NCBI GenBank assembly: GCA_964016885.1
Contig: OZ024751.1
Location: 52,018,001 to 52,082,000 of the forward strand
DNA from: Eledone cirrhosa
Lineage: Eukaryota
Direction: 5' to 3'
Length of the DNA: 64,000 nucleotides
The notes beneath the pieces were generated by a model. The model saw only the letters and a program-made list of their open reading frames with translations. It had not been told where the DNA came from and did not search any database. How positions within the stretch are numbered: the stretch's first letter is position 1; each line of letters begins with the position of its first letter. The translations under genes and the position numbers were made by a program. Of the stretch, positions 7,503 through 53,000 are shown in pieces.

Positions 7503-7769
7503 CAAGATGGTGTAGAACAGAACAAAAGAGAGACACAAAATAAAAACTCAGTCATTGAGGAGGTCACAGAATATGTGACGAAAGAGCTTTGACAATATAT
7601 AAACAACCAACCAACCAGCCAGAAATTTATAATAGATTGTAGTGAAATCCAACAGGTGCGTGTATTTTTATTGGCAGCATGACCCTACCAAAGTATAACA
7701 ATATCTGTTTCAACACACGTTTTCAGATAAGAAATATCTTGCAAAACAAATTCAAAAACAAAGTATAAA

Positions 7770-16506: not shown

Positions 16507-16851
16507 CATCATCATCATCATCATTTCATTTTATGTCCGCTTTTCCCTGCTTGCAAGGGTGGGACGGGAACTGATTCTGGCTTGATTTCTACAGCTGGAT
16601 GCCCTTCCTAACACCAACCTCATTTACAGTGAGTGCTGGGTGCTTTTTTGCCGTGGCGCCTACACGTCCACTTTACAGTGGAATGATAGGGACCTCAGTC
16701 CTATCATCTCATTTCTACAGCTGAGTAAACTGGAGCAATGTGAAATAAAGTGTCTTGCTCAAGGAAACAACACATCACCCGGTCTGAGAATTGAACTCAC
16801 AACATTTCGATTGCAAGCCCAATGCTCTAACCACTAAGCCATGTGCCTCCA
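16507..16851 (-). mobile_element. Full-length tRNA-derived SINE with RTE-derived tail
   Basis: Minus strand: A box TGGCTTAGTGG, B box GAGTTCAATTC, central ccttgagcaagacactt. The tail cccgtcccacccttgcaagcagggaaaagcggac matches RTE 43729-43762; ends in (GAT)n. Confidence 0.88.
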
Positions 16852-27309: not shown

Positions 27310-29984
27310 TCAGGTGTAGTTTTGGCGTATTTCGGGAAGCATGAGTGTCTTAAAGGATGCAGTGTCTCAGCAGCTAACAATTGACGCAGGTAGTTTGTTC
27401 CATGCTTCAGCAACTCTGAGCGTGAAAAAATGTCTGCGAAAGTCATGGGAGCTGTGCTGTTTTCTTATCTTGTAGGCATGTCCACGTGTGTTAGACACAT
27501 GGAGATCAAAGAGGCGCTCAGGGTTGCAGTTGGCGAGATGGTTAAAAACTTTGTGGGTATTCACCAAGTCCATTGCCAGACGTCGGAGCTTCAATGAATC
27601 CATGCCCAGGGAAGCAAGGCGTTCAGAGTATGGTAGGTGTCTGATGGAGGGTATGCGCTTGGTTGCACGTCTCTGAACAGTTTCCAGGAGGTCAATGTTC
27701 CGAGCAAGATAGGGGTTCCAGACTGATGATGCGAATTCCAAGTGTGGTCGCACCATAGCTGTATACAGTTTTAAATAGATGGCTGGAGAGCGGCTAACAA
27801 AGGTCTTGCTGAGTGAGGCCAAGACTTTTTGATGTCAGTGTTGTGGAGGGAGTATGTGGACGCTGGATTTTTCCTTCCAAAATGCATGGTGGTACACTTG
27901 TCCACAGCCAGCTTCAGTTGCCAGTCTGTGATCCATTGCTGCATTGTGTCCAGGTCTGATTGTAGGAAAGAGTTGTAAATTTCAGGATCAGTCCTTTTGA
28001 TTTCAAGGTACAGCTTGATGTCATCTGCATATTTTAGTACCGTGGCATTCTGTAAGTTGGTATCTATGTCATTAATATATGCCACAAACAAAAGAGGACC
28101 AAGAACAGATCCCTGTGGTACACCAGATGACATCTCATATGGTGAAGAATGCTGTCCCAGAACCGTGACTACTTCCTTTCGGCTGAGAATGAAGGATTTC
28201 AGCCAGTTGAAAAGATCATCCCTCACACCCATTGCAGAGAGTTTTGCCATAAGTCTTTTGTGTGGCACAGAATTAAAAGCCTTAGCAAAGTCAAGGTAAA
28301 CAACATCCACCCATGAGCCGCTGTCAGTGATCCGGGTGATGTCCTCAAGGAACTCGATAAGCTGATCACAGCAGCTGGAGTTAGGGATAAATCCAAACTG
28401 TGAGGGCCGGATGAGGCTGTGAGAGCTCCAGAAGTTCCAAAGTGTTTCTCTGACACAGGATTCCATCAGTTTGGCCATACAGCTAGTAAGACTGACTGGA
28501 CGATAGTTGACAGGTGACATGCGGTTGCCCTTTTTGAACAGGGGAATGACACTGGCAGTTTTCCACTGCTCCGGAGTAGCACCATTGCTGAGACAGTATT
28601 GAAAGAAAAAAGAAAGCTGGCGCAAAAGGAAATCCCCGCCACGTTTGAGAAGCAGGTATGTCACACCATCAAGACCAGGGGAGGCATAGTTGCGCTTATT
28701 CTTAAGGTGACGTCGCAACATTGCAGGTGTAAATTCCATAGTTGTTATGGAATTTGATGTTAGAGATGGTGGAGATGGTACATTCTGGTTTTCAACAGTA
28801 AAAATACTTGCATAGCACTCAGCAATGAGTTCTGCGCATTCCTTGGGATTGTCAGTGATCTGGCTTGTGTGGGGATTGCGAAGAGGACCAACTGGAGAGT
28901 GAGGTCTCTGCTTTGAATGAACATATTTCCAGAACACCTTACTGTCAGGATTGGTTGCGATGCACTGTTCAAATTCAAGCACTGCCTTCTTTGTCACTTG
29001 CTTGAGATGATTAGAAGATTTATTCCGCTTTTTTCTGTTGGCATCTGATCTATGCAGTTTATATTCCCGTTCAGCGTTCCGACGTTCTTTCCTGGCAAGT
29101 CGGACCACTGAAGTTTCCCAGATTGCACTTTTGGGGTGGTTATTTTTCCGCTTCCGTGGCACTGATGCTGCACACGCTATCCATATTGAGTCCAGGATGC
29201 TCTGGAGTATAGAGTTCACATCTCCAGAGTTATACATCTCATGCCAGTTTGGGCGCTGTAGCTCAGTGCAGTACAAGTTCCAATCCGCCCTCTTCCAATC
29301 AAAGCAAGCAGATTGGAGATGGCCCTGGTTTTTGTTGCTGCCCTCAAGTGCCAGATTGGCAATGATCATAGCATGATCAGAGTTGCCTAGAGGTTCCTCA
29401 GTAGTACAACTGATAACCACTTCAGGAGTAGTGGTGAAGATCAGGTCCAAAGTGTTGTCACCTCTTGTTGGAGAGGTGACTACTTGTGACCAGTTTGAGT
29501 CCAGCACTAGTTCAAGGAAATCGTTTGCACCCTGTGGCCAACGAAAGGTTTCCCAATCGATCTCAGGATGATTGAAGTCACCTGCAATAAACACATAAGT
29601 GGCTGTTTTCTTGGCAGCAACTCTGAGGATATCGCAAAGCTGTGTGTCCTGATGGTAGTTTGGGGGGCGATAAACAACACCAAGCAGAAGTGTTGACATG
29701 GTCATACGTATGTCACAGAAAAAAACTTCTTCCTGTGATTCGTTCAAATCAACGCAAGGAATTACCGAAAAGTTTGAACGAACGTAGACCATCACACCAC
29801 CACCACGGCGGTTAATGCGGTCCTTGCGGAAAAGGTTGTACCCAGTAATGGTGAAAACCCCATCACAGAGTAAGGAATGTGCCCATGTTTCCGTGACTGT
29901 GATGAAGTCAGGGTCGATGCTTCTGACGTAGGATTCGAACAGATGTATCTTGTTGCATAAACTGCGAGCATTTAATGACAACAA
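27310..29984 (-). pseudogene. LINE ORF2 (AP endonuclease + reverse transcriptase, CR1/L2/Jockey-group type), disrupted by one frameshifting deletion near 27825 and a premature TGA at 27367
   Basis: ORF 27771-29984 has APE motifs (LNARS, VTETW, VYRPP, GDFN, TRGDNTLDL, SDH) and RT motifs (NYRPVSLTS, LDFAKAFNSVPH, GVPQGSVLGPLLF, YADD). The C-terminus continues in ORF 27367-27822 (VRPHLEFAS..W, LETVQRRATK, FFTLRVAEAWNKLP). The frame continues past the TGA to a second stop at 27310. Confidence 0.95.
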
Positions 29985-30040
29985 TTTGTACCCTGCTCGC
30001 AGTTTATGATGGTGTGTAGAGGGTGGCAGGTTGTTCTGGT

Positions 30041-30961
30041 TTAGTTTCCCAGAGTTGTAGCAGTTTTTACATTGCCAGTTATTGCGGGTAGATCACACTC
30101 AGACCAGCTGGTATCTCTCTTCCACGTTTCACCAGCCTTGACAAACCTCCAGATCTGCCCATCATCACGCAGACTGAAACTTTCATCTTGTGCTGAGTTC
30201 CGATTCAAGGAAGCTGCAGCACGTAGTTTTGGACGTACATGGGGTGGTAGGCCTGGGCGTGTTCGGAAGGTAATCCGATTTTCACGCCCAGCTTTGGCAG
30301 AGGCCAGATGATATGAGGTTGCCTCTGCGGGGTCCGAGAAAGACAGCCTGATGAGTCTGGGTTTTGGACCAGGTCGACCAAGGCGGAGGGCACCCTTTGG
30401 GGGAACACAGCCTAGGTCTTTGGCTGAGCTGGCAGCAAATGCCTGAAGATCAGCCTTGTCCTCTGGTACCCCAATGGCAATCACTTCATGGGTAGCAGAT
30501 TCCGCAGTCTTTTCAGCAAGAGGTACAGGGAGATTCTTTAGGAAGGCATGCCGATAAGACCCCTTATTGTGGGGTCCTACCCGAATGCTTGCCTCTATTC
30601 CTGCAACTTCCCTTCTCAGAGCAGAAATCATTAGTTGCAGTTCCGCAAAATCTGTACTGGTCGGTTGTTGTTGCTGCTGCTGCTGCTGTCGTTGTTGGTG
30701 ATGATGATGTTCCTCCACGGGAATGGCAGGGGAGGACACAGTCGCAGGTTGTTGCTGTTGTTGTTGTTGGTGATGATGATGTTCCTCCACGGGAATGGTA
30801 GGGGAAGACACAGTCACCAGTTGTTGGTGTCGAAATGTACTGGGAGTGGAAGACATGGGTTGTTGTTGTTTCTGATGTTCTCCCACAGGAATAGCAGTAG
30901 AAGCCAGTGTCATAGGTTTTTGCCGTTGTTGTTGTATATTTTTTTTTCTCCCACACGCCAC
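30041..30961 (-). CDS. LINE ORF1 protein (Gln/His-rich repeats, coiled-coil-like segment, RLGR RRM-like region); true start uncertain
   Basis: 306-aa ORF directly upstream of ORF2 on the same strand. Contains IAIGVPE and LRLGRPGPKPRLIRLSF, motifs typical of ORF1 in this LINE group. Confidence 0.8.
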   Translation of the reverse strand: MACGRKKNIQQQRQKPMTLASTAIPVGEHQKQQQPMSSTPSTFRHQQLVTVSSPTIPVEEHHHHQQQQQQQPATVSSPAIPVEEHHHHQQRQQQQQQQQPTSTDFAELQLMISALRREVAGIEASIRVGPHNKGSYRHAFLKNLPVPLAEKTAESATHEVIAIGVPEDKADLQAFAASSAKDLGCVPPKGALRLGRPGPKPRLIRLSFSDPAEATSYHLASAKAGRENRITFRTRPGLPPHVRPKLRAAASLNRNSAQDESFSLRDDGQIWRFVKAGETWKRDTSWSECDLPAITGNVKTATTLGN

Positions 30962-37070: not shown

Positions 37071-37189
37071 TAACTGTTATATATATAGGGGCCTCATGTA
37101 ACATATATATATGCTCCCAGTACACACAGTAAAGTGGTTGGCAGATAAGGACACAACTTTCAACCTAATGTTAATGTGAAACTAGAATG

Positions 37190-37840
37190 CACTTGTGCCA
37201 CAATAAAATGCATCCAGCCCATCCTGTAAAATGGCAGCATTGGAGACATGATAAAGAAATGGTAGTGCTGGTAACACAATAAAATGCACCCAGCCCACTC
37301 TGTAAAATGGTAGTCTGGTAACACAATCAAATGCACCCAGCCCACCCTATAAACTAGTAGTGCTAGTAACATGATAAAATGCACCCAGCCAACTCCATGA
37401 AATGATAGTCTGGTAACAGAATAAAATGCACCCAGCCCACTCTGTGAAATGGAAGTGGTGGAGATAAAAAATACACCCAGTACACTATGTAGAGTGGTAG
37501 TGCTGGTAACATGATAAAATGCACCCAGCCCACACTGTAAAATGGTAGTGCTGAAGTTATGATAATATACACCCAGTACATTATGTAAAGTAGTAGTGCT
37601 GGTTATATAATAAAATGTATCCACTACACTCTGTAAAGTTGTGATCCCAGTAACACAATAAAACACATCCAGTCTACATTGTAAAGTAGTTGGCATGAGG
37701 AGTGGCATCCAGTCATAGAGACACAATCTCAAACTGGAACATATGAGCAGGGCGTGTTCAGCTGACCTGTCGGGACTCAGCACATGACAACCCGTCTAAC
37801 CTATGCCAGTGTGGAACACAGACGTAAAATGGTAATGATG
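37190..37840 (+). repeat. Tandem amplification (~45-bp unit, ~11 copies) of a SINE internal module, ending in a SINE tail
   Basis: gtagtgctggtaacacaataaaatgcacccagcccactctgtaaaatg repeated, then ggcatccagtc..cccgtctaacctatgc..gatgat. Confidence 0.8.
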
Positions 37841-40296: not shown

Positions 40297-40469
40297 ATAT
40301 AGAGAGAGAGATGACTTGGAATTTTGTAAGCTAATGTACTGAGCAATGTTGATGTTTTTTTAAATTTTGTTTCTTTTTTTTGTTTTTTTATCATTTTACT
40401 TCCTTTTTTAAAGTGAAAAGTATAAGAAACAATAAATAATTTACCTATTCGCTGAAGCATACAGCTAAA

Positions 40470-40660
40470 TGAAGCTGGGCGGACAATCAGCAGCGATCGT
40501 AAGAGTAAAAAGTCTTGCACAATGCTTCGCCAATAAACATTCAATTTGACGTAAACAACTCGCGCTCGTGTTGCGGCCGATTTCAAAACATCCGCATGCG
40601 CACTCACTCAGTAAGAAATGGCGTAAAGGACGTTAAGGACCACACAAAGCCGAGAGGGGA
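40470..40660. promoter_or_regulatory. Putative promoter (CpG-dense patch)
   Basis: GC box GGGCGG, CCAAT, TGACGT, TCGCG, NRF1-like GCATGCGCA and YY1-like AAATGGCG, all within 190 bp. Confidence 0.45.
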
Positions 40661-40926
40661 GAGGGGGAGAGAAGCAAATGCTTGGAAGTTGTCGCAATCT
40701 GTCTGTATATTTATATATATATCTATTTACCCCCCCCCCCGCTCTCTCTCCACACACGCACACACATATATATTCTTCTCTCTCTCTCTCTGCATACATA
40801 TATATATATATATATATGTAGAGGTTATATTTAATTTGTTGGGATACAACAAGCAAAATATTTTTATAACTAATATAAAGCACTCAACAAATAACAAATG
40901 GAAACTATATTTATAAAACCATATTT

Positions 40927-40990
40927 ATTTCATTATACATATTTCAAGGGCCACCAAAGCAAACTATGGTGCGCTTTCATCAGATAAAAT
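40927..40990 (-). ncRNA. Type I hammerhead ribozyme fold (left arm, opposite strand)
   Basis: Exact reverse complement of 41151-41214. Confidence 0.75.
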
Positions 40991-41150
40991 ATAATATAGG
41001 TTAGTTTTATAAATAAATATTGACATACCCTTAAAAAATGCAACCATTCTGGTTGGAATCTCCTGGATATCTATCCAGGAGATTCTAACCAGAATGGTTG
41101 CATTTTTTAAGGGTATGTCAATATTTATTTATAAAACTAACCTATATTAT

Positions 41151-41214
41151 ATTTTATCTGATGAAAGCGCACCATAGTTTGCTTTGGTGGCCCTTGAAAT
41201 ATGTATAATGAAAT
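41151..41214 (+). ncRNA. Type I hammerhead ribozyme fold (right arm of long palindrome)
   Basis: ATTTTAT CTGATGA [aag..cacca/tggtg..ctt] GAAA T atgt A TA ATGAAAT: stem I 7 bp including one GU pair, stem II, 2-bp stem III, AUA site. Confidence 0.75.
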
Positions 41215-41455
41215 AAATATGGTTATATAAATATAGTTTCCATTTGTTAATATATTGTACATATATATATATATTCCCTACTCTCTCTCTCACATCTTGT
41301 GGCTCCTTTTCTTTTTCTTTCTATTTCCCCCAGCTCCCTGCTCTCCTTTACCTTATTTTATTTTTTATATTTACTAGATTTCTCTAATTCTTCATCTCTT
41401 CTACTCTTTTCTTTACATTTCATTCCTTTTTTCCCTTTCATGACCCCCCCCCTCA

Positions 41456-41749: not shown

Positions 41750-42113
41750 GCTGCCAATAAAGACACACACACCAGTTGAGTTTCACTTCAATTTATTATT
41801 ATAATTTCCAAGTCGGTTAGTTTAATAACCAAATGGTTGTTTAGTTGCTGATTGTCAAAGTTCTTCCGTTTAACAAAAGTAGTTACTGAGGAAGTCACAG
41901 AATGTGTGATGAAAGAGCTTTGACAATCAAAAACTAATCAACCATCCAGTTATTAAACTAACTGACTGGGAAATTAGAATAATAAATTGAAGTGAAACTC
42001 AACTGGTGTGTGTGTGTTTTTATTGGCGGCATGACGCTCCCAAAGTATAACAGTATCTGTCTCAACACACGTTTTCACATAAAAAATCTTGCAAAACAAA
42101 TACAAAAACGATT
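41750..42113 (+). mobile_element. Fold-back hammerhead-bearing element
   Basis: Imperfect inverted repeat 41750-41868 vs ~41909-42030; ends at (TA)n. Confidence 0.7.
41882..41924 (+). ncRNA. Minimal type I hammerhead ribozyme fold
   Basis: GTTA CTGAGGA a GTCAC agaatgt GTGAT GAAA GAGC TT TGAC; stems I and II are kept, with GC/GU exchanges relative to the copy at 7551. Confidence 0.7.
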
Positions 42114-50799: not shown

Positions 50800-50880
50800 A
50801 CTACTTTTTACCAACGACAACCCGGTGTTTACGGCAGGAAGTTGGAGGTGAAAGGTCACGACGCAACTTCAAAATGGCGA
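50800..50880 (+). promoter_or_regulatory. Putative housekeeping-type promoter / TSS region
   Basis: ETS-like CAGGAAGT, GGTCACG, YY1-like AAAATGGCG, local CpG enrichment. Confidence 0.45.
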
Positions 50881-50921
50881 AAGGAAGAATTGGATTTATG
50901 CAATTCTTTTCCAAAGATAAG
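50874..50921 (+). CDS. Candidate first coding exon (MAKGRIGFMQFFSKDK) of an unidentified gene
   Basis: aaaATGGCG (Kozak/YY1-like) in a CpG-rich patch, followed by an AAG|GTTAGT donor and a T-rich intron start. Confidence 0.45.
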
Positions 50922-53000
50922 GTTAGTGTTTCAGGTTTATTTCTCGACTTTCGATGTTTTTTTCTCATTATTTTATTGTTGTTTCTTTGTTATTATATAT
51001 TTCCTCCATTTTATTTTCAGTTTCTATTTTACATTTAATAAACCTGAACTTACGATCACACACACATATATATATATATATATAAAGCAAGCACTCATGT
51101 GGATACTCGCATATGTGTATATTACACAATATTTATGTAATTTTTTTTATCTGATTGTGTGTATATATATATATAAACATTATATAAATTATATATAGTT
51201 TTAGGATGGAGCATGAAAAGTGTATATATAAATATATATAATAATAGGTATATAATATGTATATATATATATATATATATATATGTATCATATATATGTA
51301 TATATTTGTCAGCCAAAATTTATGTATATAAATATCATATTTGTAAAATTATATTTGTAAATACATGTGTTAAACACACACACACATTATTTAAGATAGA
51401 GGATGTATGGCTGTATGCGTCGTGTGTGTGTATGTGTGTATGCATATCTATTAATATTTGTAATTGTAGAAATTTTCAACAGCGAGGAAAGGATTCTTGG
51501 TTAGAGAAAACCTTCGTTCCATCCATCTCTATAATTTTTCATATATAATTAGCCATCAACTTAATATCTTCTATTTCCAAATTATAATGAAACTAAACAC
51601 GGCATTTATTTTTAAGATCAAACCGTCACCCGTATCAGACAATATGGATCTGTAGATGCGGTATCTATGTCTGTCTGTGGTTATTGTTGTTTAGCCCCAG
51701 GTATTCTCTGATCGAGAACTATGGTCAAAAGTATTCCGGCCATGATTATTTCGCCAGAAATAAATACATCTAATATTAAATTTGTGTAATGTGACCTCCT
51801 TGTATATTTTATTTTATTTTTACGGTGGGTGTGATTTAAGGGTAATTTGACCGCTATTTCTAGCACATCGAGTGACTGTTTAGAGGCCCTCCATCCTTTT
51901 GATTCGTATTTGTTTGATGGCGTGTGTGTTAGGTTAGGTGTCTCGTGGCTGCTATTAAAATCTGACATGGTTTTATTTCAACAAACACCACGACAATTGA
52001 AAATCTTTCATCACCACCACACTCCTTCACAGGCTGACTAGTATTCATGACATAGTTTCTCTTTCAATACCACATATACACTATAATGTATATGTGATTT
52101 ATTCTTACTAAATCCGTGTCTACGCTACACTTGGTGTATTAGAAGTTGTGATGTTTATCACCTTTCTTGATAAATGCTTATAACTTTGCGCGGAGTTTGA
52201 TTGAAGCTTCGGGAATCGAAACTCCCTGATAATCTATATGAATAATAATTGTTTCTAATTTAGGCACACGGCCAATAATTGTTTTTATCGGAGAGTCGAT
52301 TAAATCGCCCCCTGTTCTTAATTTGTAATTTTATTTGATCGAACTCGGAAGGACGAATAGTATTAATAATTGTTTCTACTTTTGGCACAAGTCCAGCAAA
52401 AATCCAGTGCATTACTGGTACTTTATTTTATCGACCCCGTAAGGATGAAAGGCAAAGTTAACCTCAGCGGGATTTGAACTGTTTCTACTTTTGGCACAAG
52501 GCCAGCAATTTGAAGGGATTAAATTGAGCTCAGTTCTTGGTTGTTTATTTTATCGACCCCGTAAGGATGATTAATAATAATGATAATTATGCATTTAGCA
52601 TGTGCGTGTAGATGGATGAAAGAAGTTAGCGTCTATGCGCATTGACTCCGCCTATTCGGTTTCAAATTCCGATTGCAGCTGTCTCATTTCACTCGCATAA
52701 CATAACAATGAATGTCATGGTTTCCTTATAAACATTAATCGCTGTGTCACGCCACACATGAAACTATCAGTTGGATTGGAACCTATCCATAGATAGATGG
52801 TCTTCTCTGATGATTATCCCATCTAAATAAACTCCTTAAAGGACTGAAATGAGTTGTAATTAAACGAAGTACTATATAAAGAACATTATCGCCGAGGTTA
52901 ACTTTGCCTTTTATCCTTACGGGGTCAATAAAATAAAGTACCAGTAATACACTGGAATAATTGCTGGCCTTGTGCCAGAAGTAGAAACAATTATATATAT

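What the first reader, a model, noticed from the sequence alone, without database searches (positions are those of the whole stretch)
40892..41249. 178-bp near-perfect palindrome giving a hammerhead on each strand, ~250 bp from a promoter-like patch
The arms differ at only ~2 positions and have a 2-nt spacer. Transcription in either direction yields a hammerhead plus its full antisense copy, which would form a long dsRNA (possible ADAR/Dicer substrate; cruciform-prone DNA). Such long spacerless palindromes are normally unstable, implying a very recent fold-back insertion.
Basis: partly seen in the sequence, partly recalled or inferred. Interest (0 to 1): 0.7.

Follow-up and report, generated by a model that had tools for sequence, protein, structure and literature searches.

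The report
Mirror-image stub of Penelope-type retrotransposon
This mirror-image DNA is real but ordinary in kind: it is one of thousands of ribozyme-bearing stubs of a Penelope-type jumping gene in this genome, likely made by copying one RNA onto both ends of a cut in the DNA, and its ribozymes would be locked shut if it were read through.

Summary
The 178-bp palindrome (2 mismatches) and a type I hammerhead on each strand are confirmed, but it is not a one-off fold-back. It is a head-to-head insertion (40818-41259) of two truncated terminal repeats of a Hydra-clade Penelope-like retrotransposon, lodged in (TA)n. The left arm carries the family's ~88-nt tail, less a 25-nt deletion. The hammerhead core has 6,424 exact matches in the genome. 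In 55 sampled insertions, 31 are head-to-head: 28 have one tail, 3 none, 0 two. In 8 of 31 the arms share no sequence, which excludes fold-back for those. Arms agree at 82 of 85 polymorphic sites (54% between insertions). Best mechanism (inferred): both cut DNA strands prime reverse transcription on one RNA at two fixed sites. The layout (inverted repeat, one-sided tail, opposite-strand hammerheads) is published; this twin-priming reading was not found in the papers searched, but this scan's agents reached it before in other genomes and other families of this genome. No read spans the locus; no RNA data. 'Very recent' is not supported.

The parts
40818..41259 (.). Whole head-to-head insertion of a Hydra-clade Penelope-like element (two 5'-truncated pLTR copies, 3' ends outward)
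   Evidence: Alignment to a natural long copy, L077; ends ambiguous by up to 6 nt because of (TA) microhomology
40818..41069 (-). Tail-bearing arm, element positions +3 to +278 (+1 = family 5' hotspot), with a 25-nt deletion between 40891 and 40892
40818..40891 (-). Remaining part of the ~88-nt 3' tail; in long copies it continues into the 5' UTR and the ATG at +328
   Evidence: L077, L088, L091
41071..41259 (+). Tail-less arm, element positions +2 to +189
41069..41071 (.). 5'-5' junction, one untemplated or changed base at 41070
   Evidence: gap 1; 63 distinct junctions among 65 head-to-head insertions
41150..41215 (+). Type I hammerhead: core from 41158, predicted cut after 41207, 2-bp stem III with self-complementary 8-mer (41199-41206)
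   Evidence: covariation across 13 related variants; cleavage untested
40926..40991 (-). Mirror hammerhead, identical sequence; core from 40983, predicted cut after 40934
40795..40817 (.). Left target microsatellite, TAC(AT)10
   Evidence: Sequence; possible target duplication with the right side, not significant family-wide
41258..41274 (.). Right target microsatellite, TAC(AT)7
   Evidence: Sequence
41113..41118 (+). Candidate splice donor of a 5' UTR intron of the parent (element +44; mirror at 41028-41023 on minus)
   Evidence: Inferred from motif kept in a sister family; no RNA evidence
40460..40660 (.). Single-copy CpG-rich host patch, promoter-like; neighbour, not part of the element
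   Evidence: motif names (GC box, CCAAT, NRF1-like, YY1-like) are recalled

Best explanation
The palindrome is a head-to-head stub of the hammerhead-bearing terminal repeat (pLTR) of an abundant Hydra-clade Penelope-like retrotransposon, likely built at this site when both cut DNA strands primed reverse transcription on one element RNA. Shown: the arm is the pLTR of elements encoding RT plus GIY-YIG endonuclease; copies sit in (TA)n; 3' ends fall at two fixed sites (+189, +277); head-to-head pairs use each site once; arms of one insertion share variants; junctions differ between insertions; 5' ends pile up at +1. Inferred: a protein dimer cuts both strands in (TA)n; each 3' end anneals through 5-6 nt of AU repeat at one of the two sites of an uncleaved RNA that starts at +1 (likely the pLTR promoter); the downstream polymerase displaces the upstream cDNA where arms overlap; the two cDNA ends are joined by end-joining. 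Here both cDNAs ran almost to +1, which gives the near-perfect palindrome. The copy is likely inert: read-through would fold a long hairpin that blocks both ribozymes.
For: Parent: arm lies 3' of an RT/GIY-YIG frame in L077-L091; tail runs on to the ATG in 3 of 3 long copies whose tail precedes the ORF; Hydra motifs (against PMC8557442 section 11). Abundance: 6,424 exact 23-nt cores, reversed control 0. Geometry in two samples not chosen for being palindromic (30 of 34 sites with this exact hammerhead; first 30 of 6,424 sites; 55 insertions after removing 5 double-counted loci): 31 head-to-head, tails 1:28, 0:3, 2:0, against 15:9:6 expected if arms chose sites independently, chi-square p 4.5e-6. 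In 8 of 31 the tail arm shares no sequence with the other arm. Arms agree at 82 of 85 polymorphic positions against 54% between insertions, 0 of 5000 permutations (47 young insertions of 65). 63 distinct junctions in 65; 31 with overlap of 1-13 nt, 6 blunt, 28 with inserted bases. (TA)4 follows 58 of 63 site-1 ends and 49 of 59 site-2 ends, background 20%. 27 of 30 sampled of 84 sites start exactly at +1 against 4 of 30 of 53 at +44 and 12 of 27 at +51, 4 of the 12 being one duplicated locus. In vitro, a Poseidon protein cuts and extends both strands, starts at two internal RNA sites that bound the tail, is modelled as a dimer and uses uncleaved RNA (PMC11167929).
Against: No experiment on this family. 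23 of 31 pairs do overlap in sequence, so one RNA needs strand displacement, which is assumed. Arm agreement could also come from two RNAs of one source locus or from later arm-to-arm gene conversion. 3 of 31 pairs have no full tail. A target-site duplication could not be shown (3 of 46, shuffled mean 2.2). The +1 start has no RNA support; the extra G before +1 is weak (27 of 84, p 0.013, and may be templated by the other arm). Samples required an intact hammerhead core on one arm, and one sample is the start of contig 1 only. PMC11167929 found priming without homology to the target, unlike the microhomology read here. No read or contig spans the junction. No named Hydra reference was available for a tree; Pfam found nothing on the proteins.
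Confidence: 0.68

Rival explanations
1. Same parent and double priming, but each subunit copies its own RNA molecule from the same source locus, and an asymmetric dimer forces one to start at each site.
For: Explains full overlap of arms (as here, +2/+3 to +189 on both) without strand displacement; arm agreement 82 of 85 fits one active source at a time; the hammerhead's self-complementary stem III could hold two RNAs together.
Against: Needs an extra rule to give 0 of 31 two-tailed pairs; minor alleles shared by both arms at 27 of 30 sites although several source variants exist; the predicted RNA-RNA duplex is weak (-2.2 kcal/mol).
Confidence: 0.17
2. Self-priming or fold-back: one cDNA (or an antisense template, as proposed for rotifer Penelope elements) folds back and is copied to give the second arm.
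For: Proposed in PMC3846280 (Discussion passage); explains arm identity; 31 of 65 junctions have short overlaps; for this copy alone the geometry fits.
Against: In 8 of 31 sampled pairs (13 of all 65) the arms share no sequence, so neither can be a copy of the other; the second arm ends at the same fixed site as solo copies; 28 of 65 junctions carry inserted bases.
Confidence: 0.1
3. The palindrome is itself a mobile unit (MITE-like or retrozyme-like) copied whole from a master palindrome.
For: Many near-full-length palindromes of similar size; both arms start within -5 to +25 in 3 of 31 sampled pairs.
Against: 63 distinct junctions in 65; arm lengths form a continuum; no tandem monomers here; no excess A>G that a hairpin RNA intermediate might leave; a shared 5' stop at +1 explains the similar sizes.
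Confidence: 0.03
4. Sequencing or assembly fold-back artefact.
For: No listed read or contig bridges the centre.
Against: Arms differ by 2 substitutions and a 25-nt deletion; the mirror stops at the family's biological end and does not extend into the flanks; the same lopsided layout recurs at dozens of loci. The blank is expected: short contigs of a repeat that fits two places are laid on one arm.
Confidence: 0.02

Closest known systems
Hydra clade of EN+ Penelope-like elements (Craig et al. 2021, PMC8557442; abstract, passages, sections 11 and 15 read; supplements not seen)
   Same: C-terminal GIY-YIG, DKT, CxCx5C linker, no CCHH, CxxC and CxH beside E and N, hammerhead in pLTR, (TA)n targets, mollusc hosts reported
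   Different: RWR in place of RWK; about 3.9 kb because of a ~1.3-kb 3' UTR (reported generally <3 kb); tail ~88 nt against the 30-40 nt stated for PLEs
Inverted 5'-truncated pLTR plus one-sided tail of EN+ PLEs (PMC8557442 Fig. 2 legend; Adineta Pen2a, PMC3846280, 8 passages read)
   Same: Head-to-head arms, palindromic junction, tail on one end
   Different: No ORF between; those papers attribute the layout to endonuclease resolution or self-priming, whereas non-overlapping pairs here point to double priming
Poseidon element of Anolis in vitro (Frangieh et al. 2024, PMC11167929; parts 1-2 of 4 read)
   Same: Two internal RT start sites bounding the tail near the pLTR-ORF junction; AT-rich targets; both strands cut and extended; hammerhead cutting not needed
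   Different: Start sites here lie upstream of the ATG, 88 nt apart, and each is followed by 5-6 nt of AU repeat matching the target; the paper found no homology and the parts read do not treat inverted copies
Metazoan PLE hammerheads (Cervera and de la Pena 2014, PMC4209133; parts 1-2 of 4 read)
   Same: Type I, short palindromic helix III, dimer-dependent; pairs on opposite strands 100-700 bp apart already noted in Schistosoma
   Different: Pair 10.1-11.1 is A-U or G-U in 12 of 13 variants here, not the conserved G-C; stem I is 8 bp
LINE-1 twin priming
   Same: Second target strand primes internally on the same RNA, giving an inverted segment
   Different: Here the internal site is fixed and the two cDNAs can overlap fully
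Metazoan non-LTR retrozymes (bioRxiv 10.64898/2026.07.22.740005, part 1 of 5 read)
   Same: Type I hammerhead, PLE-related, non-coding copies
   Different: Retrozymes are head-to-tail tandem monomers; this is an inverted pair cut from a coding parent

Membership tests
EN+ Penelope-like element | Single ORF with RT and GIY-YIG endonuclease linked to the repeat | tested here: met
   Frames of 520, 407, 402 aa upstream of the arm in long copies, all broken; RT and GIY-YIG motifs read from alignment with homologues; Pfam blank
EN+ Penelope-like element | pLTR: same repeat at 3' end and before the ORF (partial tandem) | tested here: met
   L077, L088, L091
EN+ Penelope-like element | Inverted 5'-truncated copy and one-sided tail | tested here: met
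   31 of 55 head-to-head, 28 with one tail; tail longer than published
EN+ Penelope-like element | 5' UTR intron retained in copies | tested here: inconclusive
   Candidate donor at +44 kept in a sister family and candidate acceptor before the ATG; no RNA
Hydra clade | DKT motif | tested here: met
   Translations of L077, L088, L091
Hydra clade | RWK motif, no GxKF/Y | tested here: inconclusive
   RWR at the RWK position; most homologues have RWK; GxKF/Y not examined closely
Hydra clade | CxCx5C linker; CCHH absent; CxxC and CxH around E and N | tested here: met
Hydra clade | Insertion into (TA)n | tested here: met
   58 of 63 and 49 of 59 ends, background 20%
Hydra clade | Generally shorter than 3 kb | tested here: not met
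   ORF span ~2.2 kb plus ~1.3-kb 3' UTR plus pLTR, about 3.9 kb; stated as a tendency in the paper
Hydra clade | RT tree placement with named Hydra elements | not tested
   No named reference among the 120 hits listed; supplements not opened
Type I hammerhead ribozyme | Conserved core and three stems with covariation | tested here: met
   13 hand-picked variants (1 misaligned row dropped): 92.7% cells paired, 9 of 21 pairs with double changes, slid controls 36-57%; related sequences inflate the shuffle control
Type I hammerhead ribozyme | G10.1-C11.1 pair | tested here: not met
   A-U 7, G-U 5, other 1
Type I hammerhead ribozyme | Self-cleavage | not testable with these tools
   No assay; no clear pile-up of 5' ends at the cut site
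Non-LTR retrozyme | Head-to-tail tandem monomers of a non-coding unit | tested here: not met
   Inverted pair; coding parent
MITE | Fixed-length element with symmetric terminal inverted repeats and shared interior | tested here: not met
   Lopsided ends, variable lengths, 63 of 65 junctions distinct

The most novel reading that the evidence does not exclude
The inverted pLTR and one-sided tail of Penelope-like elements are the footprint of obligate twin priming: one RNA, two fixed start sites, one per target strand, with strand displacement; in the Hydra clade both sites carry AU repeats that pair with the (TA)n target, and both lie with the hammerhead inside a retained 5' UTR intron.
Probability: 0.5. 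Interest if true: 0.55.

Novelty: new member of a known kind. Interest (0 to 1): 0.3.

Why it matters
The locus itself is ordinary. The family is useful because how Penelope-like elements make their inverted repeats and tails is named as an open question (PMC8557442, section 15). Thousands of copies give counts that separate models (one tail per pair, non-overlapping pairs, shared variants) and name two exact start sites to test in vitro. It also means this genome likely holds hundreds of long, nearly spacerless palindromes (5 of the first 100 listed sites form pairs with this copy's spacing), so such structures persist here.

Tried and rejected
Rfam: no hammerhead hit. Pfam on five parent frames: nothing above cut-off. 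Neptune clade, my first guess: dropped for Hydra after reading the motif list. Reads: no RNA holder listed; no listed piece spans the locus or the centre, uninformative; summed depths were not used as copy number. Target-site duplication: 3 of 46 informative against 2.2 shuffled, inconclusive. Cap-derived extra G at +1: weak. Excised intron as template: no pile-up of 5' ends at +44 (4 of 30 of 53 sites, control 12 of 27), rejected. Hammerhead-cut RNA as template: 5 of 30 of 304 sites flagged, of which 3 look like internal deletions; the planned control pattern hit a sister family instead, so inconclusive. A-to-I footprint, a lead from note e1-8671701: none in 47 insertions. A 4-kb tandem on contig 4 proved to be a segmental repeat holding a truncated pair, not a full-length array. 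The bacterial promoter scan is not relevant. The single arm does not fold mainly as a hammerhead in the energy model (stem I probability about 0.16). Literature: searches for Penelope with twin priming (3 listings, none on PLE insertion by title or abstract start), inverted pLTR, mechanism terms and octopus found no paper stating this model; subscription papers are not covered. No intact parent ORF was found among 15 long loci.

Full report
Observation. The inverted repeat is as described: arms 40892-41069 and 41072-41249, 178 nt, two bases between, two mismatches. A script found a hammerhead core with an 8-bp stem I at 41158 on the plus strand and at 40983 on the minus strand, and one other candidate in the 64 kb. 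Rfam missed it. Stem III is two pairs closed by a self-complementary 8-mer, the dimer-type design described for animal Penelope hammerheads (PMC4209133, parts 1-2 read). Across 13 hand-picked variants from related families in this genome the core is invariant apart from position 7, 92.7% of cells pair and 9 of 21 pairs show double changes, against 36-57% for slid controls (one misaligned row was dropped; relatedness inflates the shuffle control). The 10.1-11.1 pair is A-U or G-U, not the usual G-C. Cleavage is untested.

It is a repeat. The window lies in a 3.0-Gb animal genome rich in (TA)n; an octopus-like host is my inference from composition. A search with the palindrome gave 1,578 candidates; the 40 scored were similar palindromes at 91-97% (selected for that by the query). 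An exact 23-nt core occurs 6,424 times, the reversed control 0 times. Flanks show the element is lopsided: one arm ends in (TA)n right after the shared part, the other runs on for about 88 nt.

Parent. Walking upstream from longer copies led to a ~1.3-kb 3' UTR and a reading frame with RT and GIY-YIG motifs. In three long copies the tail continues into the 5' UTR and an ATG at +328, so arm plus tail is the pLTR and the start of the next unit. All 15 long loci were broken. Pfam was blank and the 120 homologues listed carry no useful name. The motifs match the list for the Hydra clade in PMC8557442 section 11: DKT, CxCx5C, no CCHH, CxxC and CxH, hammerhead, (TA)n; RWR stands for RWK, and the element is longer than 3 kb. 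No tree was built.

Geometry. Numbering from the family's 5' hotspot (+1): hammerhead core +89, cut site +138, first 3' end +189, tail end +277. Two samples were not chosen for symmetry: 30 of the 34 sites with this exact hammerhead and the first 30 of 6,424 sites, 55 insertions after removing 5 loci counted twice. 31 are head-to-head; 28 have one tail, 3 none, 0 two; 24 are solo. Independent choice predicts 15, 9 and 6 (p 4.5e-6). In 8 of 31 the tail arm lies wholly beyond +185 and shares nothing with the other arm, which a fold-back cannot give. Pooling all 65 distinct pairs (including sets chosen by the palindrome or by a +1 start), 63 junctions are distinct. In the 47 youngest, arms agree at 82 of 85 polymorphic positions against 54% between insertions. 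(TA)4 follows 58 of 63 and 49 of 59 ends, and in the parent both sites are followed by 5-6 nt of AT repeat. 5' ends pile up at +1: 27 of 30 sampled from 84 sites, against about 7-8 sites at each of two control positions (the patterns differ in length). A sister family of about 2,360 sites showed the same layout in the 10 loci printed.

Mechanism. In vitro, a Poseidon protein cuts and extends both strands, starts at two internal RNA sites that bound the tail, is modelled as a dimer and uses uncleaved RNA (PMC11167929, parts 1-2 read). Joined with the counts above, the likeliest route is twin priming on one RNA: one target strand primes at +277, the other at +189, both cDNAs run toward +1, the downstream one displacing the upstream one where they overlap, and the ends are joined. 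This copy is the case where both nearly reached +1. The cutting, annealing, displacement and the nature of +1 are inferred. Two RNAs on an asymmetric dimer remain possible; self-priming (PMC3846280, passages read) is excluded only for the non-overlapping pairs. Gene conversion could add to arm agreement.

Results against or blank. No target duplication family-wide. No spanning read or contig and no RNA holder listed. No pile-up of 5' ends at the candidate intron start or clearly at the hammerhead cut. Extra G at +1 is weak. No A>G excess.

At the locus. The neighbouring patch is single-copy and CpG-rich, with a candidate splice donor at 40441-40446 on the minus strand that suggests a gene running away from the element; this is not tested. 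If read-through occurs in either direction the antisense arm comes first and a hairpin of about -296 kcal/mol forms, with hammerhead stem I at about 1e-64. A Dicer or ADAR substrate is possible but unshown. Arm divergence is 1.1% against a mean of 2.4% in 35 pairs: younger than average, not brand new; no rate was available to date it.

Novelty. The inverted pLTR, one-sided tail (PMC8557442) and opposite-strand hammerhead pairs (PMC4209133) are published. My searches found no paper stating twin priming for PLEs, but they miss subscription journals and supplements. I had reached the model, which showed that other agents of this scan read other genomes, and other families of this genome, the same way; those notes are not independent support. 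Verdict: new member of a known kind, interest 0.3.

Noticed in passing
window 41759-42019: Second inverted repeat (107-nt arms, 90%, 47-nt spacer) in a (CA)n run; a separate, older dispersed family (3,501 candidates; most matches are ~150-bp copies), with another match at 7550-7618. MITE-like; not classified.
   Followed up: partly
window 6788, minus strand; L043:948-1016: Decayed hammerhead-like motif of another repeat family with a different stem III.
   Followed up: no
L220-L249: Sister pLTR family, about 2,360 exact sites, often in opposite-strand pairs 0.2-4 kb apart with one tail; hammerhead has a compensatory G-C pair in stem I.
   Followed up: partly
L006:1113-1191, L157:2297-2375: Related hammerhead family whose stem III palindrome is a different, GC-containing self-complementary word, supporting the dimer design.
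   Followed up: partly
window 40441-40446, minus strand: Candidate splice donor just left of the CpG patch, suggesting a first exon transcribed away from the element; gene not identified.
   Followed up: no
window 50830-50925: Second promoter-like patch with a short candidate first coding exon on the plus strand (ATG near 50876, donor near 50922).
   Followed up: no
window 27367-30961, minus strand: Near-complete LINE-like element with a 773-aa endonuclease/RT frame and an upstream 306-aa frame.
   Followed up: no
window 37109-37690: Degenerate 47-48-bp tandem array.
   Followed up: no
window 16784-16841, minus strand: tRNA-like Rfam match at threshold (29.7 bits), likely a SINE head.
   Followed up: no
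L079:5993-7867 and L085:5374-7539: Other Hydra-like families (about 40% and 60% identity to the parent) lying beside copies of this one.
   Followed up: partly
L307-L308: About 4-kb segmental tandem repeat, four units seen, each holding the same truncated head-to-head insertion.
   Followed up: yes
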